The notes beneath the pieces are model-generated. The model did not search any database and was not told the DNA's origin. It saw only the letters and a list, made by a program, of their open reading frames with translations. A DNA stretch of 64,000 bases. It comes from Candidatus Doudnabacteria bacterium RIFCSPHIGHO2_02_FULL_42_25. Lineage in GTDB: Bacteria; Patescibacteriota; Doudnabacteria; UBA920; O2-02-FULL-48-8. A program made the translations under genes and the position numbers. The stretch spans positions 278,300 through 342,299 of the forward strand of contig MFEQ01000006.1 of the NCBI GenBank assembly GCA_001777665.1, written 5' to 3'. Positions 1,450-43,380 of the stretch are shown piece by piece (the stretch's first letter is position 1; every line of letters starts with the position of its first letter).

Positions 1450-2136
1450 TTAAAAATTATATGCTGGTCTGGAAGTAAAAAATTTAAATTCAGTTAATGG
1501 CAGGGCTCGGACAAAGACTTTTCCGATGATATCTTTTTCCGGTAAAACGCCCCAGTCCCTAGAATCTGAAGATGCAAGCCTGTTATCGCCCATTACAAAG
1601 TATTCGCCAGCTCCAAGAGTTAGAATCTTACTCCCACCGAGTAATACTGTATCTTGCTCATAAGTCATGCTTTGGTTGGGTAGATATTTTTCATCGAGTG
1701 CAACTCCGTCGGGGTGTTCATCGTTATAAATGATTACCTTGCCATTCTGCAACTGAAGTTTTTCACCAGGTAAGACGATTATTCGCTTGATAAAAAATTG
1801 GTTTTCGTCTTTCGGGTAACGCATAACGATGACATCACCGCGTTTGGGGTCTCCAAAGTTGTAGGATAATTCATCTATAATCAAATACTCACCATCTTGG
1901 AAATTCGGGACCATGGACGATCCAGAGACGATAAAGGGCTGGAATACAAAATAACGAATCGGGATAATAATTACAAGGGCAACCAATACAATTTTCAGAA
2001 AATCCCAAATTAATAAGGCTGTGGCAGTAAAACCACCAAAGAAATTTCGATTTTTAGATGTTTTTTCTGTTTGATTGTCTGAATTTTGTTGAGTTGTCAT
2101 AAATTTATCTGGTGGATCCGGATGGATTTGAACCAT
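1450..2136 (-). CDS. lepB: signal peptidase I (S26 family)
   Basis: N-terminal TM segment, an 'SGSSMVPNF' Ser box, the 'GDNRLASSDSRDWG' box and 'IIGKVFVRALP' are all present in the translation. Confidence 0.85.
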   Translation of the reverse strand: MVQIHPDPPDKFMTTQQNSDNQTEKTSKNRNFFGGFTATALLIWDFLKIVLVALVIIIPIRYFVFQPFIVSGSSMVPNFQDGEYLIIDELSYNFGDPKRGDVIVMRYPKDENQFFIKRIIVLPGEKLQLQNGKVIIYNDEHPDGVALDEKYLPNQSMTYEQDTVLLGGSKILTLGAGEYFVMGDNRLASSDSRDWGVLPEKDIIGKVFVRALPLTEFKFFTSRPAYNF

Positions 2137-2164
2137 CGGCCTTTTGGATGTGAACCGAACGCTC

Positions 2165-2289
2165 CCCGCCTGCCACGCCTAATTAAATTTCTTGGTGGAC
2201 GATAGTGGATTCGAACCACTGACCTCGTCGATGTGAACGACGCACTCTAACCAGCTGAGCTAATCGTCCAAGATGGCATGGCGGGCAGG
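2165..2289 (-). repeat. palindromic-element arms CCTGCCCGCCATGCC / GGCGTGGCAGGCGGG flanking a complete tRNA-Val, inserted in the D-loop of the outer tRNA
   Basis: Read on the minus strand, the arms are the same 15-nt pair found in-frame in topA, uvrA and uvrC. Here the 'loop' between them is a whole tRNA gene. Confidence 0.7.
2194..2269 (-). tRNA. tRNA-Val (anticodon CAC)
   Basis: 76-nt cloverleaf GGACGAT-TA-GCTCAGCTGGTTAGAGT-G-CGTCG-TTCACAT-CGACG-AGGTC-AGTGG-TTCGAAT-CCACT-ATCGTCC-A. CCA follows in the genomic sequence. Confidence 0.85.
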
Positions 2290-2314
2290 TAACCCCTGAG
2301 CTACGGATCCAAAC

Positions 2315-2554
2315 TTAGATGCGTCCTTTTAAAAATCTTCGGCCAAAACCGGTTTTAAAATACTTTTCTCGTTTAATAGCATTCTCTTTGCTCAAACAGG
2401 CCTCGTAATATACTAATTCAAACGGGATTCTAGCCTTTGTTGCTTCGACTAAACCTTTATTATGCTTATCTACTCGTTCTTGCAAATCAACAGTCCAGCC
2501 TATATAAAGCTTTAAATCTTTAAGACTTTTTAGTACATAAGTATAGTAAAACAT
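2315..2554 (-). CDS. GIY-YIG nuclease family protein
   Basis: 79 aa. The 'YVLKS…LYIGWTVDLQERVDKHNKG' block is the GIY-YIG catalytic motif. The gene lies directly beside the IR-flanked tRNA insertion. Confidence 0.75.
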   Translation of the reverse strand: MFYYTYVLKSLKDLKLYIGWTVDLQERVDKHNKGLVEATKARIPFELVYYEACLSKENAIKREKYFKTGFGRRFLKGRI

Positions 2555-2567
2555 AACGCTCTAACCA

Positions 2568-2634
2568 GCTGCCCGCCCGCCATCGCAAGCCTGACACTTA
2601 CGCTTTATAACTTGCTCAGGCGTTGCGGGCGGGA
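2568..2634. repeat. intergenic GC-rich palindromic element, long variant, copy A
   Basis: CTGCCCGCCCGCC…GCAAGCC…GGCTTGC-like…GCGGGCGGG. It shares terminal arms with the 51-bp in-frame elements. Confidence 0.7.
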
Positions 2635-2704
2635 GCTAACCGCCCACTGCATTGATTTAACGACTAGTCTTTACAGCTTAGCAGAGACCCCGCATTGAGA
2701 TCAA

Positions 2705-2766
2705 CCTGCCCGCCTTCGCAAGCCTGACACAAATGCTTAAGGCTTGCTCAGAGCGTTGCAGGCGGG
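2705..2766. repeat. intergenic GC-rich palindromic element, long variant, copy B
   Basis: CCTGCCCGCCTTCGCAAGCCTGACAC…GGCTTGCTCAGAGCGTTGCAGGCGGG. It has nested inverted repeats and the same terminal arms as the in-frame copies. Confidence 0.7.
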
Positions 2767-2808
2767 TACTGATTTCGAGTATAATTACAAAGCGAATGTA
2801 AAAAACTG

Positions 2809-4299
2809 ATGAACTATATGAACGACTTTCCTGAACTTCAACAACAATACGCCCCCTCACACCCCAAACGCCATCGTCGTCGATGGAAATGGGTGGTTTT
2901 AATTCTGATCATTCTCGGGATAGCAGGAGGGGTCGCTTTCAAATACCTAACTCAAGCAAATCAAATTTTTACGGGCGACAAAAATATCTTTGCCCGGATC
3001 GGAAATTTGCTCCTAAGCCCGGATAAGGAATTGATTGGAGAGTCGAATGGTCAAATCAATATTCTTTTGATGGGAATCGGAGGCCCCGGACACGAGGGAG
3101 CGCTTCTCACTGACACCATGCTCGTTGCGAACATCAATATACAGACCAACGAAGTGGTGCTCACCAATATTCCTCGAGACTTTATGGTGGATCTCCCGAA
3201 ATATCGGTTACAAAAAATTAATGCAGCTTATGCGTATGCCGAGCGAGATAATCCTGGGACTGGAGGAGAAGCTGCAATCGATGAAATCGAAGCCGTAACT
3301 GGACTTGAGATCCCCTACTACGCTGTGATTGACTTCAAAGGGTTTGTGAAAGGAGTGGATGATGTGGGCGGGCTGGATATTACGATTGACCGCACCTTTA
3401 CTGATGCTTTCTATCCTGATTACAAAAATGGTTATCTCGCCCCAGTGACTTTTACTAAAGGGCCGGAACACATGAATGGCGAACGGGCCTTGATTTTTGC
3501 CCGTTCCAGAAAAGGTAATAATAATGAAGGCTCGGATTTTGCCCGCAGCGAACGACAGAAAAAAATTCTGGTCGCCTTCAAAGAAAAAGTTTTTGCTTTA
3601 AAATTAAATGACCTCAAAACATTAAATAATCTCCTCGGGGCTTTTACTGATAACTTTCGAACTAATATGGAACCTCATGAGCTAAAAAGGCTCACCGATC
3701 TGGGTAGTAAAATCCAAGAACAATCAGTCTATTCATTTTCGCTCGAACCTGATGGGGAATTAGTTTGCTCGGCTCTAATTGATTTAGCCACTGGGAAGCC
3801 ACCAGTGCCGATCGCTGTCCCGCCAACGCCTACACCTCCGCCAGCTGGCGGACCAACTCCAACCCCCAGCCCGTCTCCATCGCCAACGCCTACACCTGAA
3901 GAAGAACCAGAACTAGACAACCCATCGACGACAGCCTACGTCGTCATCCCGTGTGTGGGCAAAACTCTAGCTGACATCCATACCCATCTCAAAGATTCTA
4001 TTTATTTCGCCAAACTCAAAAAAGAATCAGCAATTGTTGAGATACAAAATTCTACAGGCAAAACTGGATTGGCTAACTCACTTTTCGGCACCCTGACCAA
4101 CCTCGGGTTTGAGATTAAATTCACTTCTTTCACGGGTAAAGTCCCGCTCGAGCAGTCAATTATCTATGACAACTCCCATGGGGGCAAGCCCAACACGCTA
4201 GAATATTTAAATTCAAATTATAAGCTAACTATCTCCGACGTTAACTACACCGGCTCTACAGCTGATTTTGTGATAATATTAGGGAAGGATGCTCTCTAA
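2809..4299 (+). CDS. LytR-CpsA-Psr (LCP) family cell-envelope transferase with Pro/Thr-rich linker and C-terminal domain
   Basis: N-terminal TM segment, then an LCP core (GQINILLMGIGG…LTDTMLVANI…IPRD…INAAYA…). A PT-rich linker contains an in-frame PPAGG palindrome. Confidence 0.8.
   Translation: MNYMNDFPELQQQYAPSHPKRHRRRWKWVVLILIILGIAGGVAFKYLTQANQIFTGDKNIFARIGNLLLSPDKELIGESNGQINILLMGIGGPGHEGALLTDTMLVANINIQTNEVVLTNIPRDFMVDLPKYRLQKINAAYAYAERDNPGTGGEAAIDEIEAVTGLEIPYYAVIDFKGFVKGVDDVGGLDITIDRTFTDAFYPDYKNGYLAPVTFTKGPEHMNGERALIFARSRKGNNNEGSDFARSERQKKILVAFKEKVFALKLNDLKTLNNLLGAFTDNFRTNMEPHELKRLTDLGSKIQEQSVYSFSLEPDGELVCSALIDLATGKPPVPIAVPPTPTPPPAGGPTPTPSPSPSPTPTPEEEPELDNPSTTAYVVIPCVGKTLADIHTHLKDSIYFAKLKKESAIVEIQNSTGKTGLANSLFGTLTNLGFEIKFTSFTGKVPLEQSIIYDNSHGGKPNTLEYLNSNYKLTISDVNYTGSTADFVIILGKDAL
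3838..3851. repeat. 14-bp perfect palindrome CCGCCAGCTGGCGG, in-frame, encoding PPAGG
   Basis: Exact palindrome containing a PvuII site, located inside the LCP linker. Confidence 0.8.
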
Positions 4300-5629
4300 T
4301 ATTCATATGAAAACTCCACTGGTCGCGATTATAGGCCTACCGAATTCAGGTAAGTCGACATTATTTAATAAAATTCTGGGACGAAGGGCGGCTTTAACTT
4401 ACCCTGAAGCTGGGACGACCAGGGATCGCGCCTATGGCCTTTCTGATTGGAATGGCCTTTCTTTTATTTTAATTGATACTGCTGGTATCGACATTCGAGC
4501 GAATTCTGATCTTGAAAAAAATGTTCAAAAGCAAACCCAGATCGCGAAAGACGAAGCAGATCTAATTTTACTCCTCGTCGATGGCAAAACTCCGCTTGGT
4601 TCCAAAGATCTCCAGGTTGGGGCTGATCTTAATCGCTCCGGTAAAGTCATAGTGTTAGCGGCGAATAAAATAGATGCCCGCAATACAAAAATTGAAGCAC
4701 TAGCCTCTGAATATCAAAAATTAGGATTGGGAGATCCCCTCCTTGTGTCCGCAGTCAACGGCACTGGAGTCGGAGATTTACTCGACCAAGTTGTCGAAAA
4801 ACTAAAAGCCGCTGGATTTGGCCTTCAAACAGATGACAATTCTGGGATCCGAGTCGCTTTTGTCGGCAAACCAAATGTCGGGAAATCTTCACTGATCAAT
4901 GCTCTGATCAAACAAGAACGGCTCCTCGTCCATGACCAAGCAGGAACTACGCGCTCAGTAGTCGAAATCCCATTTACACACGAAGGCCAAGATTTTATTT
5001 TGCTGGATACTGCAGGAATCAAAAAGAAATGGCAGCAGGATTCTGATGTCGCAGCTGCTGCAGCTTTTCAATCCATTCGGACTATTACTCAAACCGATGT
5101 GGTATTTTTCGTCATTGATGCGACCACTGAAATCACCACCCAAGACCAGTCCATCTCCTCGGATATTCTCGACGCCGGTAAAGCTGTGGTTTTGATTTTG
5201 AATAAAATTGATAAATTATCCAAAGAAAACCAAAATAAGTTTGTCGATAATCTCCCAAACTATCTCCCCCAAATGTGGTATGTACCTGTGATTTTTACAT
5301 CAGCCACTGCTGGTACAGGTATGGATCTTTTGTTAAAATTTGCTAAGGATGTGCTGGATACTTCCAAGAAACAGATAGATCAAACCGAACTTGATGATTT
5401 CTTACAAAAAATTCTGGCTGAAAATATGCCTGGTAAAATGGAAGACCAAAGAGAGCCAAAAATTTTCTCTCTCAGGCAAATCGGCATTCTCCCCCCAACT
5501 TTCAAACTGACTGTAAACTTCCCAGCGGCTATTGCCGAAAGCTGGAAACGCTGGTTTGAAAAACAGTTTCGCTTGAAATTTGGCTACGAAGGCACCCCAG
5601 TATTAATGCGTTACTTTAGAAAAGTATGA
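4289..5629 (+). CDS. der: ribosome-associated GTPase Der/EngA (tandem GTPase domains plus KH-like domain)
   Basis: Two G1 P-loop motifs are present (GLPNSGKSTLFN and GKPNVGKSSLINAL), each followed by DTAG. Confidence 0.9.
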   Translation: MLSNIHMKTPLVAIIGLPNSGKSTLFNKILGRRAALTYPEAGTTRDRAYGLSDWNGLSFILIDTAGIDIRANSDLEKNVQKQTQIAKDEADLILLLVDGKTPLGSKDLQVGADLNRSGKVIVLAANKIDARNTKIEALASEYQKLGLGDPLLVSAVNGTGVGDLLDQVVEKLKAAGFGLQTDDNSGIRVAFVGKPNVGKSSLINALIKQERLLVHDQAGTTRSVVEIPFTHEGQDFILLDTAGIKKKWQQDSDVAAAAAFQSIRTITQTDVVFFVIDATTEITTQDQSISSDILDAGKAVVLILNKIDKLSKENQNKFVDNLPNYLPQMWYVPVIFTSATAGTGMDLLLKFAKDVLDTSKKQIDQTELDDFLQKILAENMPGKMEDQREPKIFSLRQIGILPPTFKLTVNFPAAIAESWKRWFEKQFRLKFGYEGTPVLMRYFRKV

Positions 5630-6860: not shown

Positions 6861-6910
6861 TTCAAAAAAATTTTGAAACAAAAACCGAAAACCCAATTCC
6901 ATATATCCCA

Positions 6911-9399: not shown

Positions 9400-11709
9400 A
9401 TGGCAAAATCACTAGTCATAGTAGAGAGTCCGACTAAGGCAAAAACGATTTCCAAATTCCTCGACGGAAAGTATAAAGTCGAGGCGTCTTTTGGTCATAT
9501 CCGCGATTTGCCGACCAGTAAAATGGGAATCGACATCGAACATGATTTCGAACCTACATATGTCATTCCACCGAAAGCAAAAAAGAAAATTGCTGAACTA
9601 AAAAAATTGGCGAAAGATGCCGAAGAAATAATTCTCGCGACTGACGAAGACCGCGAAGGTGAAGCCATTGCCTGGCATTTGGTAGAGGCTTTGGGCTTAA
9701 ATAAAACTCATAAACCAGAAGCTAAAATCAAACGCATCGTTTTCCACGAAATTACGAGGTCGGCTATAGAAACCGCGATGGAACATCCTCGGGAGCTGGA
9801 TATAGATTTAGTCGACGCCCAGCAAGCACGCCGAGTACTCGACCGGTTGGTGGGTTATGAACTCTCCCCTTTCTTATGGAAGAAGGTTAAGAGAGGCTTG
9901 TCAGCCGGACGTGTCCAATCTGTCGCTGTGAGATTGGTCGTGGATCGCGAACGCGAAATCCAAAAATTTACTCCAGAAGAATATTGGAACATTATTGCGA
10001 CTTTTCATAAAGATAATAATTTCCTAGGTAAACTCAACAAAATCGACGGCAAAACTTTGGATAAACTCGGGATAAAAAACGAGACTCAAGCCAAGAAAAT
10101 TTTAGCTGATCTCGCCAACCGACCAGCCGAGGTCACAGAGGTTACGAAAAAAGAAGTCCGACGCAATCCAGCTGCTCCTTTTATTACATCTTCACTCCAG
10201 CAAGAAGCAGCTCGGAAGCTCGGTTTCAGTGCCAAACAGACCATGATGTACGCCCAGCAATTATATGAAGGTGTGGAACTTGGCGACGGCAGTGCGACAG
10301 GTTTAATTACCTATATGAGAACGGATTCAGTTAATCTTTCTGAGTTTGCGCTCGATTCAGCCCACAAAGCGATCATGGAACGATATGGTAAAGACTATTT
10401 ACTCGATACTCCTCGCAAATATGCGTCCCGATCGAAAAACGCCCAGGAAGCACATGAAGCCATCCGACCAACTGATTTACAAAGAGATCCCGAAAGTCTC
10501 AAAGACCACCTCGATCGCAACCAACATCGACTTTATGATTTGATTTGGAAACGAACAATCGCTAGCCAAATGCCAGAAGCTGTATTTGATCAAACCGCGG
10601 TTGATATCGAGATTAAAGGTGATAAAAAATACACCTTCCGTGCCAATGGCCAAGTCATCAAATTCGATGGATTCATGAAAGTTTACCTAGAAGGCACTGA
10701 TGAAGAAGAGCCTACTGAAGAAGACCTGCCCGCCATGCCTCGTGGTGGGCCAGATGACAAGGCGTGGCAGGCGGGCGGGTTGCTACCTGAACTCAAGGTT
10801 GGCGATAAACCAAAAGTCGTTAAAATTTTACCGAAACAATCTTTCACCCAACCTCTACCTCGCTACACTGATGCCACTCTGATCAAAGCTTTAGAAGAAC
10901 AAGGGATCGGCCGTCCCTCGACTTATGCGCCAACCCTGACAACAATTCAAGAACGCGATTACGTCAATAAAATTGATAAAAAATACCATCCGACTGAAAT
11001 GGGTTTTATCGTTAATGATATTTTAGTTGAACATTTCCCAAAAATTGTAGATCTCCAATTCACAGCGCTTATGGAAGATGAATTGGATGGCATAGCCACG
11101 GGTGAAAAGGCCTGGGTGCCGGTGATCAAAGAATTTTATGGCCCCTTCCATGAAAATTTGAAAACTAAAGAAAAAGAAGTCGAACGCCATGTCGAAATTT
11201 TGGATGAAAAATGTCCTCTTTCGGGTCATCCCCTACAGATTAAGTTTGGCCGGTTTGGAAAATTTGTGGCATGTACTAATTATCCAGAATGTAAATTCAC
11301 CCGTCCGATGCCAGAAGAACAAAAATTGATCGAAGAAAATAGCGGGGAAATTTGCGATGTTTGCGGTCGTCCTATGATCGTAAAGTTTGGTCGGTTTGGT
11401 GCTTTCCTCGGTTGCAGTGGTTATCCGGATTGTAAAAATATCAAAAAGATTCAAAAAGGTACTGGTGTCACTTGCCCATCCTGCGGCGAAGGCGAATTGG
11501 TAGAACGACGCAGCAAACGTGGAATTTTCTATTCTTGTTCCAAATATCCGAAATGTAAATTCCTGATGAATGGTAAACCGACTGGTGAAAAATGCCCGCA
11601 ATCGGGCGATCTATTGATGGAAACTAAAAACGGTACTCTGAAGTGCAGCAACAAAGAATGTGACTATGAACGCGAAGCTGCCCCCGCTGAAGTTGAAAAA
11701 GCAAAATAA
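9400..11709 (+). CDS. topA: DNA topoisomerase I with three C-terminal zinc ribbons
   Basis: Toprim N-terminus (LVIVESPTKAKTI), an active-site Tyr region and repeated CxxC…CxxC zinc-ribbon modules are present. Confidence 0.9.
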   Translation: MAKSLVIVESPTKAKTISKFLDGKYKVEASFGHIRDLPTSKMGIDIEHDFEPTYVIPPKAKKKIAELKKLAKDAEEIILATDEDREGEAIAWHLVEALGLNKTHKPEAKIKRIVFHEITRSAIETAMEHPRELDIDLVDAQQARRVLDRLVGYELSPFLWKKVKRGLSAGRVQSVAVRLVVDREREIQKFTPEEYWNIIATFHKDNNFLGKLNKIDGKTLDKLGIKNETQAKKILADLANRPAEVTEVTKKEVRRNPAAPFITSSLQQEAARKLGFSAKQTMMYAQQLYEGVELGDGSATGLITYMRTDSVNLSEFALDSAHKAIMERYGKDYLLDTPRKYASRSKNAQEAHEAIRPTDLQRDPESLKDHLDRNQHRLYDLIWKRTIASQMPEAVFDQTAVDIEIKGDKKYTFRANGQVIKFDGFMKVYLEGTDEEEPTEEDLPAMPRGGPDDKAWQAGGLLPELKVGDKPKVVKILPKQSFTQPLPRYTDATLIKALEEQGIGRPSTYAPTLTTIQERDYVNKIDKKYHPTEMGFIVNDILVEHFPKIVDLQFTALMEDELDGIATGEKAWVPVIKEFYGPFHENLKTKEKEVERHVEILDEKCPLSGHPLQIKFGRFGKFVACTNYPECKFTRPMPEEQKLIEENSGEICDVCGRPMIVKFGRFGAFLGCSGYPDCKNIKKIQKGTGVTCPSCGEGELVERRSKRGIFYSCSKYPKCKFLMNGKPTGEKCPQSGDLLMETKNGTLKCSNKECDYEREAAPAEVEKAK
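10725..10775 (+). repeat. 51-bp palindromic element inserted in-frame in topA
   Basis: CCTGCCCGCCATGCC-N21-GGCGTGGCAGGCGGG. It encodes LPAMPRGGPDDKAWQAGG. Confidence 0.85.
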
Positions 11710-13859: not shown

Positions 13860-15173
13860 TCAATCATTTTTCATGAAGATCCTGTTTTCGGTAGTCCAAT
13901 AAGAAATCGCTTTGGTGAATGGTAAAATAGATAGAAAATATCTCAAATCCGCGGCTTTGCGGATGAGCCAACCCGAAAATCCGGACATAATCACACTCGG
14001 TGTATAAAAAATAGCAAATTTTCCAGTCACAGGAATAATAAATCGTAACGCTACTGGATGATAACTAAGCAGCGGCTTGTCTTTGATCATGCGGTAAATA
14101 TTTTTGGCGACATATTTGCCTTGATTGATAGCTTCTTGTGCAGTTTGTGGCACTGGCTTTTTTGTAACTGGATCCACTATTCCGGTATTGTCCCCGGCGA
14201 GAAATACGCGTGGGTATTGCGATAAATTCAAAGCAGTCGCCACGATGGTCCGATCTTTTTTATCTCGTTCGAGTTCTCCGCCAGCTGGCAGATCTAGCGG
14301 CAACCGGATGGACCTGACTCCACCCGTCCAAATCAGCAAATCACAATCCACCCGTTCTTTCATATTTAGAATCACGTGATCCTTCCCAGTGTCAGTAATC
14401 AGTGATGAGAATCTAGTTTCAATTCCCATAGTAGTAAGTCGACTGCCGATTATTGCCGAAATTTTCTCCGACAGTCCGGATAAATAACTCGTCCCCCCTT
14501 CGACCATCACAACCTTGTAATTATTTAAATCTTTTTGATGGTGTGCACATTCATGCTTGAGCAGATTGTGTACTTCCCCGGCAAATTCAGTTCCAGCAAA
14601 ACCAGCACCACCGATAATAATGCAGCCACTGTCCTTTTTCGCAACTAAATCTTCGATACGATTCCGAATCATAATCGCATCTTCTAGACTTTTCAGTGTA
14701 AATCCGTACTTATCCAAATTCGGAATGTCATAATAATCGGGAACACTTCCCATAGCGATCACCAAATAATCAAAAGCTAAGATGCGCGAGTCAGTTATTA
14801 CTTTGCCGTTTATTAAATCAATCCGATCAACATAACCTTTGAAAACTTTTACTCTTGTTCGTTTAAAAATGTCATCGAAAGAAATCGCCACGGTATGCTT
14901 AACTTTTTTTGCTTCGACTAATCGGTGTTCTGTCGTGGCTGCTTCATAGAGAGCGGAATTAAAAGTTTGATAATCCTTTCGGTCAACTAAAATAATTTCG
15001 TATTCTAAATCATCGTGGAGGTAATTGTTCAAATCCAAAGCCGCTCGGACTCCGGCGAATCCGCCACCAAGAATGATAATATGTTTTTTCTCTTCTGGAA
15101 TTTTTGATTTCATGAATAAAAACAGCCCCTTTATTATACCATAAGCTGCGTTAATAGTTTTTCGGCAGCGCAA
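13860..15173 (-). CDS. type II NADH dehydrogenase-like FAD/NAD(P)-binding oxidoreductase
   Basis: Two GxGxxG dinucleotide folds are present (IIILGGGFAGV and IIIGGAGFAGTEFAGE). The C-terminal extension contains a near-copy of the PPAGG palindrome. Confidence 0.75.
   Translation of the reverse strand: MRCRKTINAAYGIIKGLFLFMKSKIPEEKKHIIILGGGFAGVRAALDLNNYLHDDLEYEIILVDRKDYQTFNSALYEAATTEHRLVEAKKVKHTVAISFDDIFKRTRVKVFKGYVDRIDLINGKVITDSRILAFDYLVIAMGSVPDYYDIPNLDKYGFTLKSLEDAIMIRNRIEDLVAKKDSGCIIIGGAGFAGTEFAGEVHNLLKHECAHHQKDLNNYKVVMVEGGTSYLSGLSEKISAIIGSRLTTMGIETRFSSLITDTGKDHVILNMKERVDCDLLIWTGGVRSIRLPLDLPAGGELERDKKDRTIVATALNLSQYPRVFLAGDNTGIVDPVTKKPVPQTAQEAINQGKYVAKNIYRMIKDKPLLSYHPVALRFIIPVTGKFAIFYTPSVIMSGFSGWLIRKAADLRYFLSILPFTKAISYWTTENRIFMKND
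14278..14290. repeat. near-palindrome CCGCCAGCTGGCA in-frame, encoding LPAGG
   Basis: 13/14 match to CCGCCAGCTGGCGG. Confidence 0.5.
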
Positions 15174-26648: not shown

Positions 26649-26651
26649 GTC

Positions 26652-27804: not shown

Positions 27805-29607
27805 TTATACTTTTACTACTTTTAGTCTTTTTCTTCCGAGCAATACTACTGGTACTAGTAATAGTCCTAGTAAGTCTGCGTAGATATTCGGATTAACTCC
27901 GGTTCGAGGAAGTTCAGTCGTAGCTCCCAAAATCTGGGGGGTCGGACTTGGACTTGCAGCTGGACTTGGAGTTGGTCCGCCAGCTGGCGGAGGTGTCGGA
28001 CTTGGAGGAACTGGGCCTGGCCCTGAAGCTCCACTACTCGAACCACCGCCCCCGCCGCCTCCACCGCCCCCGCCGCCACCTGGATTACCACCTACGTCAT
28101 TCAAGGTAAAGTGGGCGTTGAGAGTAATATCACCATTGATAGTAACCTGACAAGGTGTAGTTGGTCCTAGACAAGTATTGGCCGCAGGAGCCCCACTAGT
28201 CACTGACCAGCTGTTATCGAAATTCGAGCCTTCATCAGCAGTAGCGGTTAAGCTAACTACTGTTCCTTCATCATAAACTTGAGCACAATTATTTGCTTCG
28301 CCATTGCTGTCGCAAAGAATCAATTCATCATCGTCAGTAACTACACCTTCCCCATCGCCACTCGTGGTTATAGTCAAAGTGAATTGAAGCGGGCCCCCAC
28401 TGCCTTCATCTTCTTCGAAAACTACTGAAACATTTTTGTTAGAATCCATAGTTAAAGTACAGACTGTGGTGGTTTCCGCGGCACAGTCGCCGCCCCAGCT
28501 GACAAAATGCCAACCAGCATCAGCAGTTGCGGTCAAAGTCACGACTGTATTTTCATTATAAACATCATCGCAGTCAGTGGCTTCACAATCAATACTACCA
28601 ACATCAGAACCTGCAGAACCATCCCCTGTGACGTCAGTCACGGTCAGCGTGTACTGAATAGGTTCATGGACAATTTCGTTACAAACGCCATCATGGTCAG
28701 AATCTTCGTAGCCTTCAGGAATTACAACTTGAATTCCTTCAAGATTAGTACAAAGATCTGGATGTGGTTCTTCTTCTGTAAAAGTGTTTACTATGGTACA
28801 GCTAGCTGAACCATTGGAGCTGACTTCAACACTATCACAATTATTACTAGTCTGACTCCAATTATTATTTGGAACTGAAATTTCAGATACAGTATAAGTA
28901 CCAGGAGCCAATGTCAAAACTTCACTACCAATACCTCCATCAGTTTCGATAGTGAAATTATCGTCAGTACCCGTGGTGTAGGAAAAACCAAAAGTCCCAT
29001 TAGCGTTATGGGTTTCTTTGATCACTCTCAAAGTTCCGTTATAAAAACAAGAGCCGTCATCTTCTGTAGCTTCCTCATCAAAATTCAGAGCAGAACCATC
29101 AGTACAACCGAGCACTGGATCTGGCTCGCCATCGCCATCACATGCTCCTTCATTCCAAATATCTTCGTTGACATCATTCCAATTTTTTCCAGGATAGGAA
29201 CCAACACTATTACCGTCTTGGTAGTGGAATGGCGGAATAATGTCATTGATATGGCCATCGTGCCCAGTGATAGCACTGTTTACAGAAACATCTCCTGAAG
29301 ACTTATAAGCATCAGATGCATCCCAGTGACAAAGTGCAATTTTCTTCATCACTGCCCCGCCAAATGGATCATGATCAGCAGTAGCCATTAACGGGGACAT
29401 AGCTAAAACTAGCATGGCGATGACCATACCTGCATGCAAAAATTTGATGTTGCTTTGGCTGTTAACTTTTGATTTTCGAGCGACTCGGACTCGCCCTTTA
29501 CTCTGGGACCGAACTAGTTTTTTCTTGGAAGTACTGCGCATAGAGTTTTGACCTTTCTTTTCGCCAACTGGCGAATTAATTTTAACTGTAGACTGTAGCC
29601 TAAGCAA
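27805..29607 (-). CDS. large surface protein with C-terminal LPXTG cell-wall sorting signal
   Basis: N-terminal signal/TM segment. The C-terminus is …LPRTG, a hydrophobic segment, then RKRLKVVKV. Gly-rich and PT-rich linkers are present. Confidence 0.8.
   Translation of the reverse strand: MLRLQSTVKINSPVGEKKGQNSMRSTSKKKLVRSQSKGRVRVARKSKVNSQSNIKFLHAGMVIAMLVLAMSPLMATADHDPFGGAVMKKIALCHWDASDAYKSSGDVSVNSAITGHDGHINDIIPPFHYQDGNSVGSYPGKNWNDVNEDIWNEGACDGDGEPDPVLGCTDGSALNFDEEATEDDGSCFYNGTLRVIKETHNANGTFGFSYTTGTDDNFTIETDGGIGSEVLTLAPGTYTVSEISVPNNNWSQTSNNCDSVEVSSNGSASCTIVNTFTEEEPHPDLCTNLEGIQVVIPEGYEDSDHDGVCNEIVHEPIQYTLTVTDVTGDGSAGSDVGSIDCEATDCDDVYNENTVVTLTATADAGWHFVSWGGDCAAETTTVCTLTMDSNKNVSVVFEEDEGSGGPLQFTLTITTSGDGEGVVTDDDELILCDSNGEANNCAQVYDEGTVVSLTATADEGSNFDNSWSVTSGAPAANTCLGPTTPCQVTINGDITLNAHFTLNDVGGNPGGGGGGGGGGGGGSSSGASGPGPVPPSPTPPPAGGPTPSPAASPSPTPQILGATTELPRTGVNPNIYADLLGLLLVPVVLLGRKRLKVVKV
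27977..27990. repeat. CCGCCAGCTGGCGG palindrome in-frame (PPAGG) within the PT linker
   Basis: An exact copy. About 30 nt of flanking sequence is identical to the LCP gene linker at 3838-3851. Confidence 0.8.
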
Positions 29608-29668: not shown

Positions 29669-31276
29669 CTATTGGTTAACGTTTGAAATCGGTAAACCGA
29701 TTACATACGCGAACCGACCACAATCTACAACCACGAGATGGCTGAAGCTGTGCCCTCGTTCCTCAAACACGCTAGCACTTGGGAATGGGAAACGAGTGTT
29801 GTTTTTCACTTCAAACACTGCAGCAGAATTGCCGCACTTGATGATCGATCCATCTGGATGCGAGTCATTTTCAGTGATAGCTGCATCAGTACTCATGGTT
29901 CCGAGATCAGAATCAGAAATTTTCTTGACTTGTCCGAAGGCAAATCCGAGTCTTCGGAAAGCGTTTTCAGATGTAAATCCTTTTTTCTTACCTTTGTTGG
30001 TGACAAACCAAACTGTCGCATCAGTTCCTTGAACCAGTGTTCCACCAGCTGGTAGTGCTGGTAAGTCAGTTACTGGAATTCCTGTAGGAGCAGAGGCAAG
30101 TACAGTGATGTTTTGAAATTTATGACCGCGAGCATGGAAAACTGCAGCACCACGGAAGGGCTTCAGTCTGCAAGCAGCAGCCAGATAGACAGTTGGGCTA
30201 TCCCCAATTTTGTAGAGTCGGCCATTTCTAATTCCTTGACCGCAATTTTTTCCCGTTTCTTCTTCTTCCTCATCCCCATCCTCGTCATCATCGTCAGAAG
30301 GAGGTGTAACTACTGTACCACCGAAGTCACCTGTGATAGCAGGGTCGCCAGTGGCATTATTATTGGCAGCATCTTTGATCACTGAACCTGTGACAGTGAC
30401 AGTATCACCGACTGCAACTGTTGGCACTGAAGTACCAGCTGAAAGAACAATAACCAGCTCAGTACCAGCAGTATTCCATGTCGCAGATCCGAGAGCACCA
30501 GCGCCATCTTTCCATGAATGTGTATTGTTTAAGACCAATACCGTATCAATATTAGCAGCATCGATCGTGGCTTTGTTAGTCGCTTCACCAAAAGTCAGCA
30601 ATACTCGGTCGCCGGCTTCCAGAGCAGCTGTTCCACCTGTGTTTTGGGCCACTGCTGTAGTCAGCACTGGACCTGCACTATCCGCATTGATCGCAGCTGT
30701 AGTAACAGCAACAACCGTCGGCGAATTGGCAGAGGTGACAATTCCGTCTGTAGCTAACGTTACTGTGACGCTATCTGGACTAGCCCATCCAGTAGCAGCA
30801 GTTTTCAAAACTACAAAAAACTTTCCAGCAGCATTGTTGGAAGCTGTAGTAACTGTAGTTACACTCCCGATGTTCACGGTAGTGTTGCTGCCCGCGAGCA
30901 TGTCTCCTGAATCAAATGAACCATCACCATCGTCCATAAATACTGAAACGTTGGCAAGGTCAGCAGAAACAGCAGTGGCACTGTCCACAGTGACTGCTAC
31001 AGAAGATAAGGTTTCAGCAGCATCAGCTGTAAAGGTGAACTCAATCACGGCTTTTTCGCTATCTGCAGCTACAGCAGTAGCTGAGGTGACCAGTGAGGTC
31101 GGACCCACACTGACTGAAACAGCAGCTAAAGCTACACCTGCGACAAGAAACAACCCCCCTAAAATCGCAAATTTCTTCATATTTTCCTTATTAATGATAT
31201 TAATATTATAGTACATATTATAATCGTTTGTCATCAGATGTTCGTTACATGGTATAATTAACCCAAATGCCCTCAT
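29669..31276 (-). CDS. secreted Ala/Thr/Val-rich surface protein
   Basis: Signal peptide, then a low-complexity beta-rich region, then a C-terminal globular domain. Confidence 0.55.
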
Positions 31277-40479: not shown

Positions 40480-43380
40480 TTAGACTCGAACCGGTTTCAG
40501 GGCTTTGGCCAAGTATTGGCCGGTGTAACTTTTTTTGACTTTCGCGACGTCTTCTGGGGTGCCAACTGCCACGACCTGTCCGCCCTTATTCCCACCTTCA
40601 GGACCGAGATCAATAACCCAGTCCGCCGATTTGATGACATCGAGGTTGTGTTCAATGACTAGAACTGTGTTCCCTTTCTCGACTAAACGATTGAGTACGC
40701 CGAGTAAGCGCTTGACGTCATCAAAGTGCAACCCAGTCGTTGGTTCATCTAAAATGTATAGTGTGCGGCCAGTGGAAGCTCTGGATAATTCAGAAGAGAG
40801 TTTGATACGTTGCGCTTCTCCGCCAGAGAGTGTGGTAGCTTGCTGACCCAAATGCATGTAACCGAGACCGACTAAAGATAGCGTTTCTAATTTACGAGCA
40901 ATTAATGGCACGTTGCGGAAAAAAACATGTGCTTCATCCACTGTCATTTCCAGGACATCAGAAATATTTTTACCTTTGTAGTGGATGTCGAGAGCTTCTT
41001 TATTATAGCGTTTACCTTTACACTCTTCACAAGCGACATAGACATCTGGCAAGAAATGCATTTCGATTTTGATTACCCCATCGCCGCCACAGACTTCACA
41101 ACGGCCACCTTTAACATTGAAACTAAATCGGCCGGCTTTGTAACCACGCATGCGAGCTTCCGGTACAGATGCAAACAGATCGCGAATATAGGTGAAGACG
41201 CCGGTATAAGTCGCTGGGTTGGAGCGTGGTGTCCGGCCAATCGGTGACTGGTCAATATTAATAACTTTGTCGATGTTGTCGATGCCGAGGATTTTTTTAT
41301 GTTCACCTGGTGATTCTTTGGCATTGTAGAAATAAGCAGAAAGGGATTTGGCTAAAATCTCATTGAGCAATGTTGATTTGCCACTGCCCGAAACTCCAGT
41401 CAGACAAACAAATTTACCCAAAGGGATTTCGACATCAATGTTTTTAAGGTTGTGTTCAGTCGCACCTACAACTTTGATAGTTTTACCATTCCCTTTCTTG
41501 CGTGCCATAGGTACCGAGACTGATTCAGCACCAGACATGTACTTGCCAGTGAGAGAATTTTTATCTTTGGCTACTGTATTAGGTGTGCCTTCAGCAACTA
41601 ACTGCCCGCCGTGTTTGCCAGCACCAGGCCCGATATCTACGACCCAGTCCGAGGCCCAGATGGTTTCTTCGTCGTGTTCAACCACGATGACAGTGTTTCC
41701 GAGATCGCGCAAATTTTTCAAAGTTCGAAGTAATCGATCGTTATCGCGTTGGTGAAGCCCGATCGATGGTTCGTCTAAGATATAGAGCACGCCGGTCAAT
41801 CCTGAACCGATTTGGGTGGCCAGACGAATGCGCTGGGCTTCTCCGCCAGAGAGTGTATCCGCAGATCGATCGAGAGTCAGATAATTCAAACCGACATCTT
41901 GTAAAAATTTCAAACGAGAAACAATTTCTTTGAAGATCTGATGGGCGATTTTCATGTCTTTCTCGGACATTTTCTTCGGCAGGGATTCTGTAAACTCAAT
42001 CGCTTCGTCAATTGAGAAGTTGGAAACATCGACAATCGATTTCGCATCGATAGTGACTGCCAAAAATTCTGGTTTCAATCTCTTCCCTTTACAGGTCGGA
42101 CATTTCTGCACCCGCATATACTGTTCAATCTCACCACGCATATAGTCTGATTCGGTTTCTTTGTATTTGCGCATTAAATTATGGACCACACCCTCAAACG
42201 GACCGAAGTGGCCATAACCAGATTCATCCTGAAATGAAATTTTCGTGTCTCCAGTACCGTACAAAACTGCATCCAGTGCTTTCTTCGGTAAATCTCGAAC
42301 TGGAACGTGGATAGAAAACCCGTAAACTTTCGAAACTGCTTCGAGAACTCGGGAATACCAAGACATTCTGGAGGTAGTTTTGCTCCATGGTCGGATCGCA
42401 CCTTCGGCGAGAGTCAATCTTTTATTTGGGATGACTAATTCAGCCTCGATTTCCAGTCTAGTGCCAAGTCCGGTACAATCCGGACATGCGCCGTGTGGAG
42501 AGTTAAAAGAGAAGTTCCTTGGGTTCAATTCAGGTAGATTAGTATGGCCCTCCGGACAGGCAAAATTAGATGAGAGCAGTATCTCTCCCGCCTGCCACGC
42601 CTCTATCTCTTGCTTTGACCGAGGCATGGCGGGCAGGTCTTTCTCATCTTTGGCAATTATCACGGAATCGTTCCCCAAATCCAGTGCTGTTTCGAGAGAA
42701 TCAGCAATTCTGGCTCGATCTCCTGAATCCAAAGATATCCGATCCACCACAATATCTATAGTGTGTTTTTTCTTTTTGTCGACATTGAGCTGCAACGCCT
42801 CGGACAAATCCATAATCGTGCCGTCAAATCGGATTCGCTGGTAGCCGGATTTTTTGGCTTCTTCCAGTAAATGTTTGTGCTCGCCTTTTTGGTCACGAAC
42901 CAGTGGCGCCATGATCACGATCTTGGTGGATTCTGGCCAACTGACGATCTGGTCTACCATTTGAGTGACACTTTGTCCGGTAATTTTTTTACCACAAACC
43001 GGACAGTGCGGAGTGCCGACACGAGCGTAGAGTAATCTCAAATAATCATAAATTTCGGTAACAGTTCCGACAGTCGAGCGCGGATTGTGTGATGCAGATT
43101 TCTGGTCGATAGAAATCGCTGGTGAGAGTCCTTCTATCTTGTCGACATCAGGTTTATCCATAAGTCCTAAAAATTGTCTGGCGTAAGCCGAGAGGGATTC
43201 AACATAGCGTCGCTGACCTTCCGCGTATATGGTATCGAATGCCAAAGAGGATTTGCCGCTACCTGAAAGACCCGTGATGACCACGAGTTTGTTTCTGGGG
43301 ATATCGACATTGATGTTTTTTAAGTTATGGACCCGAGCTCCCCTTATTACTATCTTATCTGACATTGCGTATTCTCCCAT
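40480..43380 (-). CDS. uvrA: excinuclease ABC subunit A
   Basis: Two ABC ATPase modules with zinc fingers are present. The likely true start is the internal Met at 43365. Confidence 0.95.
42587..42637 (-). repeat. 51-bp palindromic element inserted in-frame in uvrA
   Basis: On the coding strand: CCTGCCCGCCATGCC-N21-GGCGTGGCAGGCGGG. It encodes [18 protein letters not shown]. Confidence 0.85.

What the first reader, a model, noticed from the sequence alone, without database searches (positions are those of the whole stretch)
3838..3851. 14-bp perfect palindrome CCGCCAGCTGGCGG encoding PPAGG in-frame in five unrelated genes
Exact copies lie in the LCP-family linker (3838-3851), the LPXTG surface protein (27977-27990), the rnj N-terminal tail (54428-54441) and trpS (57765-57778). 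A 13/14 copy lies in the NDH-2 C-terminal extension (14278-14290, encoding LPAGG). In every case the frame translates to P-P-A-G-G, in a linker or terminal extension. A 14-mer should occur by chance roughly once per 10^8 bp in an AT-rich genome. The palindrome contains a CAGCTG (PvuII-type) site. It could be a restriction-modification or nickase target, or a DNA uptake/recombination signal embedded in tolerant protein linkers. It could also be a second in-frame mobile micro-element.
Basis: seen in the sequence. Interest (0 to 1): 0.7.

Follow-up and report, generated by a model that had tools for sequence, protein, structure and literature searches.

The report
In-frame mobile GC-rich mini-hairpin repeat
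A 16-base perfect DNA palindrome was recently inserted into surface loops, linkers or tails of at least six genes of an uncultivated Doudnabacteria genome (four of them housekeeping enzymes or FtsZ), always reading Pro-Pro-Ala-Gly-Gly, and it belongs to a widespread, apparently undescribed family of tiny hairpin repeats that may be linked to small GIY-YIG nuclease genes.

Summary
There are four exact copies and one 15/16 copy of TCCGCCAGCTGGCGGA; the unit is 16 bp, not 14. Shuffles predict 0.1. All lie in frame 0, reading (P/L)PAGG. A sixth copy sits in FtsZ, 3 kb outside the window.

They are insertions. TrpS and NDH-2 carry exactly +4 codons against 10-17 relatives. RNase J carries +8 codons with a flanking 8-10 nt duplication. 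About 900 kb of relatives' DNA holds no exact copy.

The same 16-mer, in the same frame, interrupts TsaD, MetK, CysRS, RecJ, DnaK and other genes in many other Patescibacteria. It also sits in tmRNA, RNase P RNA helices and tRNA D-loop fragments.

It is the AGCT-loop member of a hairpin family with the stem TCCGCC/GGCGGA and a variable loop. This is the commonest GC-rich mini-hairpin in relatives. It has no stop codon in any of the six frames.

Best reading: a non-autonomous mobile mini-hairpin, filtered by selection to harmless in-frame sites. The candidate driver is a small GIY-YIG nuclease. In one genome two copies flank such a gene, and all nine cassettes examined begin with a related hairpin inside a tRNA fragment.

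Restriction, uptake-signal and chance readings are not favoured. I found no prior description.

The parts
3837..3852 (.). Exact 16-bp palindrome TCCGCCAGCTGGCGGA in the Pro/Thr linker of the LCP (LytR-CpsA-Psr) protein (ORF 2809-4299 +). It reads PPAGG.
   Evidence: It shares 31 identical nt with the LPXTG copy.
14277..14292 (.). 15/16 copy. On the gene strand it reads TCTGCCAGCTGGCGGA, in an internal loop of NDH-2 (ORF 13860-15173 -), giving D-L-P-A-G-G. The net insertion is 12 nt (PAGG).
   Evidence: In the alignment with 17 relatives, all lack the 4 residues (RLPLDL----ELERD). The one mismatch falls in the 4 nt that are native (Asp-Leu).
27976..27991 (.). Exact copy in the Pro/Ser/Thr stalk of the LPXTG-type surface protein (ORF 27805-29607 -). 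It reads PPAGG.
54427..54442 (.). Exact copy in the N-terminal tail of RNase J (ORF 54365-56113 +). It reads PPAGG.
   Evidence: Relatives have a single KAT-LKVIPLGG.
54419..54450 (+). The RNase J copy together with its flanking direct duplication: AAAGCGAC | palindrome | AAAGCGAC (KAT..KAT). This is a 24-nt insertion with an 8-10 nt target-site-like duplication.
57764..57779 (.). Exact copy in an internal loop of TrpS (57021-58022 +). It reads PPAGG. The net insertion is 12 nt.
   Evidence: The NLF..IKY spacing is 26 aa in all 10 relatives' loci and 30 aa here.
30041..30056 (.). Possible decayed copy (12/16, TCCACCAGCTGGTAGT) reading LPAGG in ORF 29669-31276 (-).
   Evidence: Weak; not tested against orthologs.
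29560..29575 (.). Possible variant hairpin TTCGCCAACTGGCGAA. It has 3 mismatches, two of which are a compensating stem pair. It lies just upstream of the likely start of the LPXTG gene.
2315..2554 (-). 79-aa stand-alone GIY-YIG nuclease ORF. It is the candidate trans-acting driver of the hairpin repeats.
   Evidence: Pfam PF01541 on the called gene. Identity to the window is shown. The cassette architecture is shown.
2572..2633 (-). GC-rich armed hairpin (CCCGCCCGCAACGCC...GGCGATGGCGGGCGGG). It interrupts the D-loop of a tRNA 5' fragment (2634-2645 and 2557-2571) directly upstream of the GIY-YIG start codon.
   Evidence: The same layout is seen in 8/8 other GIY-YIG loci.
2110..2310 (-). Split tRNA-Val-like gene. 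Its D-loop holds arm ACCTGCCCGCCATGCC (2290-2275), an intact tRNA-Val(cac) (2269-2193) and arm AGGCGTGGCAGGCGGG (2180-2165).
10722..10778 (+). Solo in-frame copy of the second hairpin family, with the same arms as in the GIY-YIG cassette. It lies in TopA and reads DLPAMPRGGPDDKAWQAGG.
42587..42640 (-). Solo in-frame copy of the second hairpin family in UvrA ([18 protein letters not shown]).
45594..45650 (+). Solo in-frame copy of the second hairpin family in UvrC. It is a 51-nt insertion between T-D and G-V-A relative to a relative (L125).

Best explanation
What it is. The palindrome is the AGCT-loop member of a family of very small GC-rich DNA hairpin repeats. The family has a 6-bp stem TCCGCC/GGCGGA and a 3-4 nt loop. 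The repeats behave as non-autonomous mobile DNA.

What is shown. New copies arose by insertion in this Doudnabacteria lineage after it split from relatives whose RNase J is at most 91% identical (TrpS at most 80%).

Why the copies look as they do (inferred). The genome is about 80% coding in the window. The element has no stop codon in any of the six frames and, being a palindrome, encodes the same peptide in either orientation. Purifying selection would then leave only copies that keep the reading frame, read the small flexible peptide PPAGG, and sit in loops, linkers or tails. Elsewhere copies survive at the tips of RNA or terminator hairpins.

Why the junctions look as they do (inferred). 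16 = 1 mod 3. An in-frame outcome therefore needs the junction to absorb 1 or 4 bases already present at the target, or to duplicate 2, 5 or 8 bases. The observed classes are 16-4 = +12 nt (four cases) and 16+8 = +24 nt (one case). Variable, microhomology-type junctions fit break repair or template switching that copies the hairpin from an existing copy. They fit a fixed-stagger DDE transposase poorly.

Proposed driver (inferred from gene neighbourhoods). A small stand-alone GIY-YIG nuclease makes the breaks or recognises the hairpin. The relation would resemble REP repeats and their RAYT gene, or a MITE and its parent element. This step is the least secure.
For: Excess and frame:
- 5 copies against 0.09 expected.
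- Six of six copies are in the PPAGG frame. The possible target TCCG is spread over all three phases: 74/59/44.

Insertions, not substitutions:
- TrpS is +4 codons against 18 homologous proteins and 10 relatives' loci.
- NDH-2 is +4 codons against 17 relatives.
- RNase J is +8 codons with the duplication AAAGCGAC.

Recent and lineage-specific:
- No exact copy in 901,786 nt of relatives' loci.
- Four identical copies in the window, and three independent assemblies identical to the window over both window ends.

Same element elsewhere:
- The 16-mer scan of genomes hit its 120-locus limit, with 69 loci below 45% GC and many Patescibacteria classes.
- In long ORFs of low-GC loci it reads PPAGG within TsaD, MetK, CysRS, RecJ, GDH, MetAP, PNPase, DnaK and RpoD tails.
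- It is exactly +4 residues against solved TsaD and MetK structures.
- It is about 10-fold more frequent than three composition-matched palindromes in low-GC viral contigs: 10 against 1, 1 and 1.

In structured RNAs:
- An insertion in a tmRNA.
- It forms P3 and P12, or the P8/P9 hairpin, of three Bacteroidota RNase P RNAs.
- It lies in tRNA D-loop fragments.

A family with a conserved stem and variable loop:
- TCCGCC-N3-5-GGCGGA is the most frequent GC-rich mini-hairpin in relatives: 18 copies against 9 and 7 for the next two stems. Some copies read SAFGG, SAQGG, PPKAD or PPLAE within open reading frames.

GIY-YIG link:
- In L062, PAL - 28 nt - GIY-YIG ORF - 3 nt - PAL, each palindrome inside a tRNA D-arm fragment next to an intact tRNA-Asn.
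- A palindrome lies 142 nt (L055) and 81 nt (L029) from GIY-YIG ORFs.
- All 9 cassettes examined (8 fetched plus the window) have a related GC-rich hairpin in a tRNA fragment 7-22 nt upstream of the ATG. Two of these hairpins contain the palindrome arm TCCGCCA.
- The window's cassette arms are identical to those of the solo in-frame copies in TopA, UvrA and UvrC.
Against: - No GIY-YIG gene lies next to a palindrome copy in the window. The window's only GIY-YIG cassette carries the other hairpin family.
- The palindrome-to-GIY-YIG proximity rests on three loci. My rough estimate of the chance probability is 0.01-0.03.
- Insertion junctions are heterogeneous. Most low-GC copies (96 of 113) show no flanking direct repeat of 4 nt or more, and three of the five with repeats of 7 nt or more lie in A-rich low-complexity sequence.
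- No presence/absence polymorphism was found within the species.
- An identical 16-mer in distant phyla needs either horizontal spread of a driver or a host-independent mechanism. Neither is shown.
- Short RNase P helices could have this sequence natively, because the P12 consensus base is CCGCC..GGCGG.
- The LCP and LPXTG copies may be one event.
Confidence: 0.6

Rival explanations
1. DNA uptake or recombination signal. Competence machinery would preferentially take up DNA carrying the palindrome, so the motif accumulates by molecular drive. It would sit only where proteins tolerate it.
For: - DprA is encoded in the window.
- By my background knowledge, Patescibacteria are often naturally competent.
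- The motif is over-represented, strand-symmetric and confined to tolerant protein positions. The same is true of known uptake sequences.
Against: - Copies arose by insertion, not point mutation.
- Density is about 1 per 14 kb. By my background knowledge, Neisseria and Haemophilus signals occur about once per kb.
- It is absent from 900 kb of close relatives, the most likely recombination partners.
- The identical 16-mer occurs in Bacteroidota, Elusimicrobiota and phage contigs.
- The family varies in its loop but not its stem.
Confidence: 0.1
2. Target of a restriction-modification or orphan methyltransferase system (CAGCTG, PvuII-type; or GGCGGA, EciI-type). It would be enriched in the way HIP1 is in cyanobacteria.
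For: - The palindrome contains CAGCTG.
- It contains two head-to-head GGCGGA sites. By my own knowledge these match known enzyme specificities.
- HIP1 shows that palindromes tied to methyltransferases can become hyper-abundant (PMC4390886, PMC5861425).
Against: - CAGCTG is neither depleted nor enriched outside the element (36 against 33.5 expected).
- I recognised no methyltransferase or restriction gene among the window ORFs. Only ten were scanned against Pfam.
- The copies are insertions, whereas HIP1 spreads by substitution.
- Loop variants lacking CAGCTG form the same family.
Confidence: 0.06
3. A functional structural module selected in place. Examples would be a hairpin bound by a protein, a transcription or translation pause site, or a stabilising RNA hairpin. 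It would be recruited repeatedly rather than spreading selfishly.
For: - Stem conserved with loop variable.
- Some intergenic copies form terminator-like hairpins followed by T-runs (L045, L084, L127).
- It forms whole helices in RNase P RNA.
- The DNA hairpin folds at -5.9 kcal/mol.
Against: - No common position or function links the hosts: loops of TrpS, NDH-2, TsaD and MetK, tails of RNase J and FtsZ, and cell-surface linkers.
- Close relatives do without it.
- Selection in place does not explain how an identical 12-16 nt insert arrives at each site.
Confidence: 0.12
4. Chance or codon-usage by-product of Pro/Ala/Gly-rich linkers, or an assembly artefact.
For: Two copies lie in low-complexity Pro/Thr linkers and share flanks.
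Against: - Shuffles give 0.09 expected against 5 observed.
- Four copies (TrpS, NDH-2, RNase J, FtsZ) lie outside Pro/Thr linkers, two of them in ordered domains.
- Synonymous positions are identical in all copies.
- Three independent assemblies are identical over both ends of the window, covering three of the copies.
- The proteins carrying the insert are seen on 23-26 contigs.
Confidence: 0.02

Closest known systems
Rickettsia palindromic elements (RPEs)
   Same: Palindromic repeats inserted in frame into unrelated housekeeping genes. The proteins tolerate them because they land in surface regions (PMC10969869).
   Different: RPEs are about 100-150 bp, encode 30-50 residues and are restricted to Rickettsia. 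This element is 16 bp (4-5 residues), is a perfect palindrome, and occurs across phyla.
REP/REPIN repeats and their RAYT (Y1 HUH) transposase
   Same: A short species-specific hairpin repeat in many copies. The putative enzyme gene is itself flanked by copies of the hairpin (L062).
   Different: By my background knowledge, REPs are extragenic, 20-40 nt, carry a GTAG head, and are tied to a tyrosine HUH enzyme. Here the copies are intragenic, the neighbour is a GIY-YIG nuclease, and the cassette sits in tRNA genes.
Prokaryotic MITEs
   Same: Non-autonomous and made only of inverted repeats. One copy has a target-site-like duplication. The family shows lineage-specific bursts.
   Different: No parent IS with matching ends was found. 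The IS1595 transposase in the window is unrelated. Junctions are variable (-4 or +8). At 16 bp it is shorter than the MITEs I know of.
Mitochondrial GC clusters (yeast GC42) and repetitive hairpin-forming elements of sponge mtDNA
   Same: GC-rich hairpins spreading in an AT-richer compact genome. Stems are conserved and loops variable. The mechanism is unknown, and endonucleases or RNA-mediated routes have been proposed (PMC4478555, PMC2800124).
   Different: Those elements are organellar, 30-60 nt and mostly intergenic. Here the setting is bacterial, the element is 15-16 nt, it is mostly intragenic and in frame, and the same sequence is shared across phyla.
HIP1 (GCGATCGC) of cyanobacteria
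   Same: A short perfect palindrome, hyper-abundant, frequent inside genes, of unresolved function (PMC5861425).
   Different: HIP1 is 8 bp, arises by substitution and is linked to methyltransferases. This element is 16 bp and arises by insertion.
Free-standing GIY-YIG homing endonuclease genes in tRNA clusters (phage T4 SegB)
   Same: A GIY-YIG nuclease gene embedded among tRNA genes and acting on the tRNA gene region (PMC2330249).
   Different: By my background knowledge, SegB is a full-length site-specific enzyme with a DNA-binding domain, and no hairpin repeats are involved. The ORFs here are 78-101 aa, close to the length of a catalytic domain alone, and are always preceded by a GC-rich hairpin inside a duplicated tRNA 5' fragment.

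Membership tests
MITE | Terminal inverted repeats | tested here: met
   The element consists of nothing but an 8+8 bp inverted repeat.
MITE | Target-site duplication of fixed length at every copy | tested here: not met
   Only RNase J shows a clean 8-10 nt duplication. TrpS, NDH-2, TsaD and MetK are +12 nt with none. 96 of 113 low-GC copies show no direct repeat of 4 nt or more.
MITE | Ends match those of an autonomous IS or transposase element | tested here: not met
   There are no half-sites at the IS1595 ends or elsewhere in the window. The IS1595 transposase is absent from all other palindrome loci.
REP/RAYT system | Hairpin repeats flanking a Y1 HUH (RAYT) gene | tested here: inconclusive
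   No RAYT was searched for genome-wide. The flanked gene found is a GIY-YIG nuclease, not a RAYT.
REP/RAYT system | Extragenic location | tested here: not met
   6 of 6 copies in this genome, and most Patescibacteria copies, lie inside coding sequence.
Rickettsia palindromic elements | In-frame insertion into unrelated protein genes at tolerant sites | tested here: met
Rickettsia palindromic elements | Sequence relatedness and about 100-150 bp length | tested here: not met
   The length is 16 bp, so it cannot be a member. Sequence relatedness to RPEs was not compared. It works like one only in outcome.
DNA uptake sequence (DUS/USS) | High density (about 1 per kb), shared by recombining relatives | tested here: not met
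   6 copies in about 84 kb. None in 900 kb of relatives.
DNA uptake sequence (DUS/USS) | Biased uptake of DNA carrying the motif | not testable with these tools
   Needs a transformation assay.
HIP-type iterated palindrome / restriction-modification target | Arises by substitution, with a cognate methyltransferase | tested here: not met
   The copies are insertions. I recognised no methyltransferase in the window (only ten ORFs scanned against Pfam). CAGCTG is at expectation. Methylation itself is not testable here.
GIY-YIG homing-endonuclease element | Nuclease gene physically linked to the repeat or target | tested here: inconclusive
   The link is seen in L062 (flanked on both sides), L055 and L029. 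The analogous hairpin is present in 9 of 9 cassettes. No GIY-YIG gene was seen next to a palindrome copy in the window.
GIY-YIG homing-endonuclease element | Cleavage of an empty target followed by copying of the element | not testable with these tools
   Needs biochemistry or genetics.

The most novel reading that the evidence does not exclude
TCCGCC-loop-GGCGGA mini-hairpins, together with the larger CCCGCC-armed hairpins, would be the non-autonomous partners of a previously unrecognised, very abundant class of mobile elements in Patescibacteria and Bacteroidota. These elements would be built around a roughly 80-residue GIY-YIG nuclease that nests in tRNA genes. The 16-bp palindrome would then be among the smallest mobile DNA units I know of. 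It would spread across phyla and seed 4-residue insertions into the loops of essential proteins and the helices of RNase P RNA, tmRNA and tRNAs. This would be a general, so far overlooked, source of indels in the proteins and RNAs of these compact genomes.
Probability: 0.3. Interest if true: 0.85.

Novelty: new variant of a known kind. Interest (0 to 1): 0.72.

Why it matters
If correct, a 16-bp hairpin is enough to behave as mobile DNA and to be tolerated inside essential enzymes. That would be a new lower size limit for repeats of the REP, MITE and RPE kind.

It would explain a class of short Pro/Ala/Gly-rich insertions in the proteins of Candidate Phyla Radiation bacteria. It would also explain odd helices in their tmRNA, RNase P RNA and tRNA genes.

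It gives a testable function to the very abundant small GIY-YIG ORFs of these genomes, which are currently annotated only as 'putative endonuclease'.

It offers a bacterial counterpart to the long-unexplained mobile GC clusters of mitochondria.

Practically, such elements create assembly breaks. They could also confound alignments, indel-based phylogenetic markers and structure models for these lineages.

Tried and rejected
- IS1595 transposase at 49860-50654 as parent element. Its flanks lack the half-site, and tblastn finds it in no other palindrome locus.
- A larger element with ends TCCGCCAG...CTGGCGGA. None exists in the window.
- Fixed target-site duplication. The excess of flanking repeats of 7 nt or more is real (5 against 0.33 expected). 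However, it applies to few copies, and three of these lie in A-rich period-7 sequence where the repeat is out of frame with the gene.
- Overall enrichment in phage contigs. The target gave 55 loci against 22, 91 and 30 for control palindromes. Only the low-GC subset differs.
- A PvuII-like restriction signal. CAGCTG is at expectation.
- Within-species presence/absence polymorphism. All cluster members of TrpS and LCP carry the insert; the two LCP entries differ only in their called start.
- One-mismatch hits in relatives as decayed copies. Three are chance frame-1 matches in native sequence and one is a terminator-like hairpin.
- A known RNA family for the hairpin itself. Rfam gives none; hits are to the host RNAs.
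- Literature search for the sequences and for palindromic in-frame insertions in Patescibacteria. Nothing relevant was found.
- The exact 4 native bases in the +12 events. TCCG^, T^GGA and TC^GA are all compatible with TrpS, TsaD and MetK. Only NDH-2 favours TCYG^. This could not be resolved.
Full report
OBSERVATION

The 14-mer CCGCCAGCTGGCGG occurs exactly at 3838, 27977, 54428 and 57765, and with one mismatch at 14278. Dinucleotide shuffles give 0.09 matches at up to 2 mismatches. K-mer counting shows that the conserved unit is the 16-bp perfect palindrome TCCGCCAGCTGGCGGA. No other GC-rich perfect palindrome of 14 nt or more exists in the window.

All five copies sit in frame 0 of long ORFs and read PPAGG, or LPAGG in NDH-2. 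The window is about 44% GC. It comes from a Candidatus Doudnabacteria (Patescibacteria) genome; TrpS is identical to OGE74449.1 and related entries.

Extending 10 kb on each side found a sixth exact copy, again in frame PPAGG, in the FtsZ C-terminal linker. Three independent assemblies are 100% identical to the window over 11.2-11.3 kb at each of its ends, including the LCP, RNase J and TrpS copies.

Two details of the finding are wrong. The NDH-2 and TrpS copies are internal loops, not terminal extensions or linkers. The LCP and LPXTG copies share 31 identical bases and may be one event.

THE COPIES ARE INSERTIONS

TrpS. The window protein has FADPPAGGNTF where 17 of 18 aligned homologs have four fewer residues. 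In all 10 relatives' loci that contain trpS, the distance NLF..IKY is 26 residues, against 30 here.

NDH-2. The window has RLPLDL[PAGG]ELERD against 17 relatives that all lack the four residues. At the DNA level, 12 nt (CCAGCTGGCGGA) follow a native GAT CTG. The single 'mismatch' of this copy therefore lies in native bases.

RNase J. Relatives have one KAT before LKVIPLGG. The window has KAT-PPAGG-KAT, a 24-nt insertion flanked by the duplication AAAGCGAC.

Relatives. In 901,786 nt from 82 loci of relatives (RNase J 48-91% identical) there is no exact copy. The copies are therefore recent and specific to this lineage.

THE SAME ELEMENT ELSEWHERE

A scan of one genome per species for the 16-mer stopped at its 120-locus limit.
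- 69 of the 120 loci are below 45% GC.
- Among the 80 titled hits, about 31 are Patescibacteria of many classes and about 20 are Bacteroidota.
- High-GC hits are ordinary chance matches in frame 1 (RQLAE, for example in ABC ATPases).
- In low-GC genomes, copies in long ORFs read PPAGG inside CysRS, MetK, TsaD, RecJ, GDH, MetAP, PNPase, MurD-like proteins, DnaK and RpoD tails, and phage proteins.

Against solved structures, the TsaD and MetK copies are exactly 4-residue insertions.

In viral contigs the palindrome is not special overall: 55 loci against 22, 91 and 30 for three composition-matched palindromes. Below 45% GC it is 10-fold enriched: 10 against 1, 1 and 1.

The element also lies in structured RNA genes:
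- It is an insertion relative to the Rfam model in a Spechtbacterales tmRNA.
- It forms both P3 and P12 of one Bacteroidota RNase P RNA, P12 of another, and the P8/P9 hairpin of a third.
- It sits in the D-loop position of tRNA 5' fragments.

Some intergenic copies cap longer hairpins followed by T-runs. Others sit in the centre of the widespread gtcattgcgag..gcaatc repeat.

A FAMILY WITH A CONSERVED STEM

I surveyed all hairpins with a 6-bp GC-rich stem and a 3-5 nt loop in the relatives' loci, which were not selected for the palindrome. The stem TCCGCC/GGCGGA is the most frequent, with 18 copies against 9 and 7 for the next two stems. Its loops differ: TTT/AAA, TTG/CAA, AGAT, AGTG, AGCC and others.

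Some of these copies lie within open reading frames (SAFGG, SAQGG, SASGG, PPKAD, PPLAE). Others look like terminators or nest in other repeats.

In genomes that hold the AGCT-loop form, that form dominates. The window's palindrome is thus one loop variant of a wider family. A conserved stem with a variable loop is the pattern reported for mobile GC clusters of yeast mitochondria (PMC4478555).

The 16-mer folds as a 6-bp stem with an AGCT loop at -5.9 kcal/mol as DNA. It has no stop codon in any of its six frames, as read directly from the sequence.

JUNCTIONS AND FRAME

Four informative events are +12 nt (TrpS, NDH-2, TsaD, MetK). From memory, a comparison with RecJ also looks like +4 residues. 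One event is +24 nt with an 8-10 nt duplication (RNase J).

The conserved unit is 16 nt. In the +12 events, four of its bases must therefore coincide with bases already present. NDH-2 favours a native TCYG followed by CCAGCTGGCGGA. In TrpS, several relatives have Pro (CCG) at that spot.

Because 16 = 1 mod 3, only overlaps of 1 or 4 nt, or duplications of 2, 5 or 8 nt, keep the frame. Selection alone can therefore explain why -4 and +8 are what is seen. This is inference.

Flanking direct repeats of 7 nt or more are in excess (5 against 0.33 expected) but rare. Three of them lie in A-rich low-complexity sequence.

The frame bias is 6 of 6. It is not explained by the phase of TCCG in coding sequence, which is 74/59/44. 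The other two frames would insert RQLA or ASWR. Selection for the small flexible PPAGG is the simplest reading.

A CANDIDATE DRIVER

The window holds a 79-aa stand-alone GIY-YIG ORF at 2315-2554 on the minus strand.
- Upstream, 17 nt from its start codon, a tRNA 5' fragment has its D-loop interrupted by a GC-rich hairpin with arms CCCGCCCGC..GCGGGCGGG.
- Downstream, a tRNA-Val-like gene is split in its D-loop by two arms (ACCTGCCCGCCATGCC / AGGCGTGGCAGGCGGG) that enclose an intact tRNA-Val.
- The same arms bound three solo, in-frame copies of a second repeat family in TopA, UvrA and UvrC (DLPAMPR..AWQAGG).
- In UvrC this is a 51-nt insertion between T-D and G-V-A relative to a relative.

This GIY-YIG family has 1553 hits in the protein collection, many on short contigs; the listed top hits are 64-82% identical. 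All 8 loci fetched for six family members show the same layout:
1. a tRNA 5' fragment;
2. a GC-rich hairpin in its D-loop (once in the anticodon loop);
3. 7-22 nt, then the ORF;
4. an intact tRNA with the same 5' sequence.

Two of those hairpins contain the palindrome arm TCCGCCA.

In a Wolfebacteria locus (L062) the palindrome itself fills that slot. The order is PAL, 28 nt, GIY-YIG ORF, 3 nt, PAL. Each palindrome lies between GCTC and GG(T/G)AGAGC of a tRNA-Asn D-arm, and the intact tRNA-Asn follows.

In Mucilaginibacter flavidus (L055) and another Patescibacteria contig (L029), a palindrome lies 142 and 81 nt upstream of a GIY-YIG ORF. Palindromes next to tRNA fragments but without an ORF occur in L022 and L057.

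This resembles REP repeats flanking their RAYT gene, or a MITE and its parent element. It is suggestive, not proven. I estimate the chance probability of the three proximities at roughly 0.01-0.03. No palindrome-flanked GIY-YIG gene lies in the window.

MECHANISM (COMMITMENT)

Most likely, the hairpin is copied into new sites at DNA breaks or stalled forks through short-microhomology junctions, using existing copies as template. A small GIY-YIG nuclease would make the breaks or recognise the hairpin.

Selection then removes every copy that breaks a frame or a fold.

What is shown: insertion, recency, frame bias, the family structure, occurrence in RNA genes, and the cassette architecture. What is inferred: the copying mechanism and the identity of the driver.

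RIVALS

- Uptake signal. It does not fit insertion, the density, absence from relatives, or the cross-phylum identity.
- Restriction or methylation target. CAGCTG is at expectation, I recognised no such enzyme gene in the window, and loop variants lack the site.
- Selected structural module. It does not explain how the insert arrives at each site.
- Chance or artefact. Excluded.

COMPARISON WITH KNOWN SYSTEMS AND NOVELTY

In outcome it works like Rickettsia palindromic elements, which insert in frame into housekeeping genes (PMC10969869). In dynamics it resembles mitochondrial GC clusters and hairpin elements (PMC4478555, PMC2800124). In its relation to a neighbouring enzyme gene it resembles REP/RAYT.

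It fails the membership tests of each:
- Size and sequence, for RPEs.
- Fixed target duplication and a parent IS, for MITEs.
- Extragenic location and a RAYT gene, for REPs.
- A substitution origin, for HIP1.

Free-standing GIY-YIG genes in tRNA clusters are known from phage T4 SegB (PMC2330249), but without hairpin repeats.

Full-text searches for the sequences and for the concept found nothing. I rate it a new variant of a known kind, namely short palindromic mobile repeats. There is a realistic chance that it marks a new element class built on mini GIY-YIG nucleases.

Noticed in passing
window 2100-2780 (minus strand): A GIY-YIG cassette nested in tRNA genes. In order it contains: a hairpin at 2704-2767; a tRNA 5' fragment GGGCGGTTAGCT | hairpin 2572-2633 | CAGCTGGTTAGAGCG; the GIY-YIG ORF at 2554-2315; and a tRNA-Val-like gene (2310-2110) split in its D-loop by GC-rich arms that enclose an intact tRNA-Val(cac) at 2269-2193. 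The same layout appears in 8/8 other GIY-YIG loci (L405-L413).
   Followed up: partly
window 10722-10778, 42587-42640, 45594-45650: A second in-frame GC-rich repeat family of about 55 nt, with imperfect inverted arms CCYGCCYGCCAYGCC and a variable centre. It reads DLPAMPR..(K/E)AWQAG(G) in TopA, UvrA and UvrC. In UvrC it is a 51-nt insertion relative to a relative.
   Followed up: partly
L121-L126, N-terminal tail of RNase J (e.g. L125 7140-7300): At one position of the RNase J tail, relatives carry different GC-rich mini-hairpins (CCTGCC-NNNN-GGCAGG, GCCTG-NNNN-CAGGC). These read N(L/P)P..RQ. Other relatives (L127, L129, L165) and the window have none at that position.
   Followed up: partly
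L073 4274-4680, L092 480-873, L070 2699-3091: Bacteroidota RNase P RNA genes in which the 16-mer palindrome forms whole helices: P3 and P12 in L073, P8/P9 in L092, P12 in L070.
   Followed up: partly
L026 5052-5448: A tmRNA of a Spechtbacterales MAG carries the palindrome as an insertion relative to the Rfam model, in the linker after PK4 (5359-5374).
   Followed up: partly
L062 2094-2524: In a Wolfebacteria locus, two tRNA-Asn 5' fragments each have the palindrome in place of the D-loop AAT. They bracket a GIY-YIG ORF (2480-2214) and are followed by the intact tRNA-Asn (2166-2094).
   Followed up: yes
window 49860-50654 and 49.8-53.9 kb: An IS1595-family transposase (DDE_Tnp_IS1595 plus a zinc ribbon) lies just after tRNA-Leu (49370-49456). 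It is followed by ORFs without family matches in a stretch of higher GC (0.46-0.48), possibly an integrated island.
   Followed up: partly
window 6895-7018, 26691-26814, 53976-54086: Three copies of a 110-124-nt intergenic repeat (80-91% identical) containing AAAATTCAGCAGAATTTT and TAATTTTACAA. They lie upstream of dprA, next to hrcA, and upstream of rnj. They may be a shared promoter or operator region.
   Followed up: no
window 8297-8378 and 15142-15223: An 82-nt repeat (83% identical) with an internal hairpin CGCGTATCG..CGATACGCG. It overlaps the starts of ORF 8293-9396 and of the NDH-2 ORF.
   Followed up: no
window 15968-15994 and 49735-49761; L055, L069, L167, L204, L218: The widespread 'gattgcttcgtcg / gtcattgcgag' hairpin repeat is present in the window. 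In other genomes its centre is replaced by the palindrome or by a loop variant.
   Followed up: no
window 26622-26687: A pair of TTAGCACT..AGTGCTAA inverted repeats lies upstream of hrcA-grpE-dnaK. By my background knowledge these look like CIRCE operators. They appear ordinary.
   Followed up: no
P0003 (TrpS of a related organism; no DNA held): This protein has FGQEPATGSAI at the same site and with the same length as the window's FADPPAGGNTF. It may be a decayed copy of the palindrome or an independent insertion.
   Followed up: no
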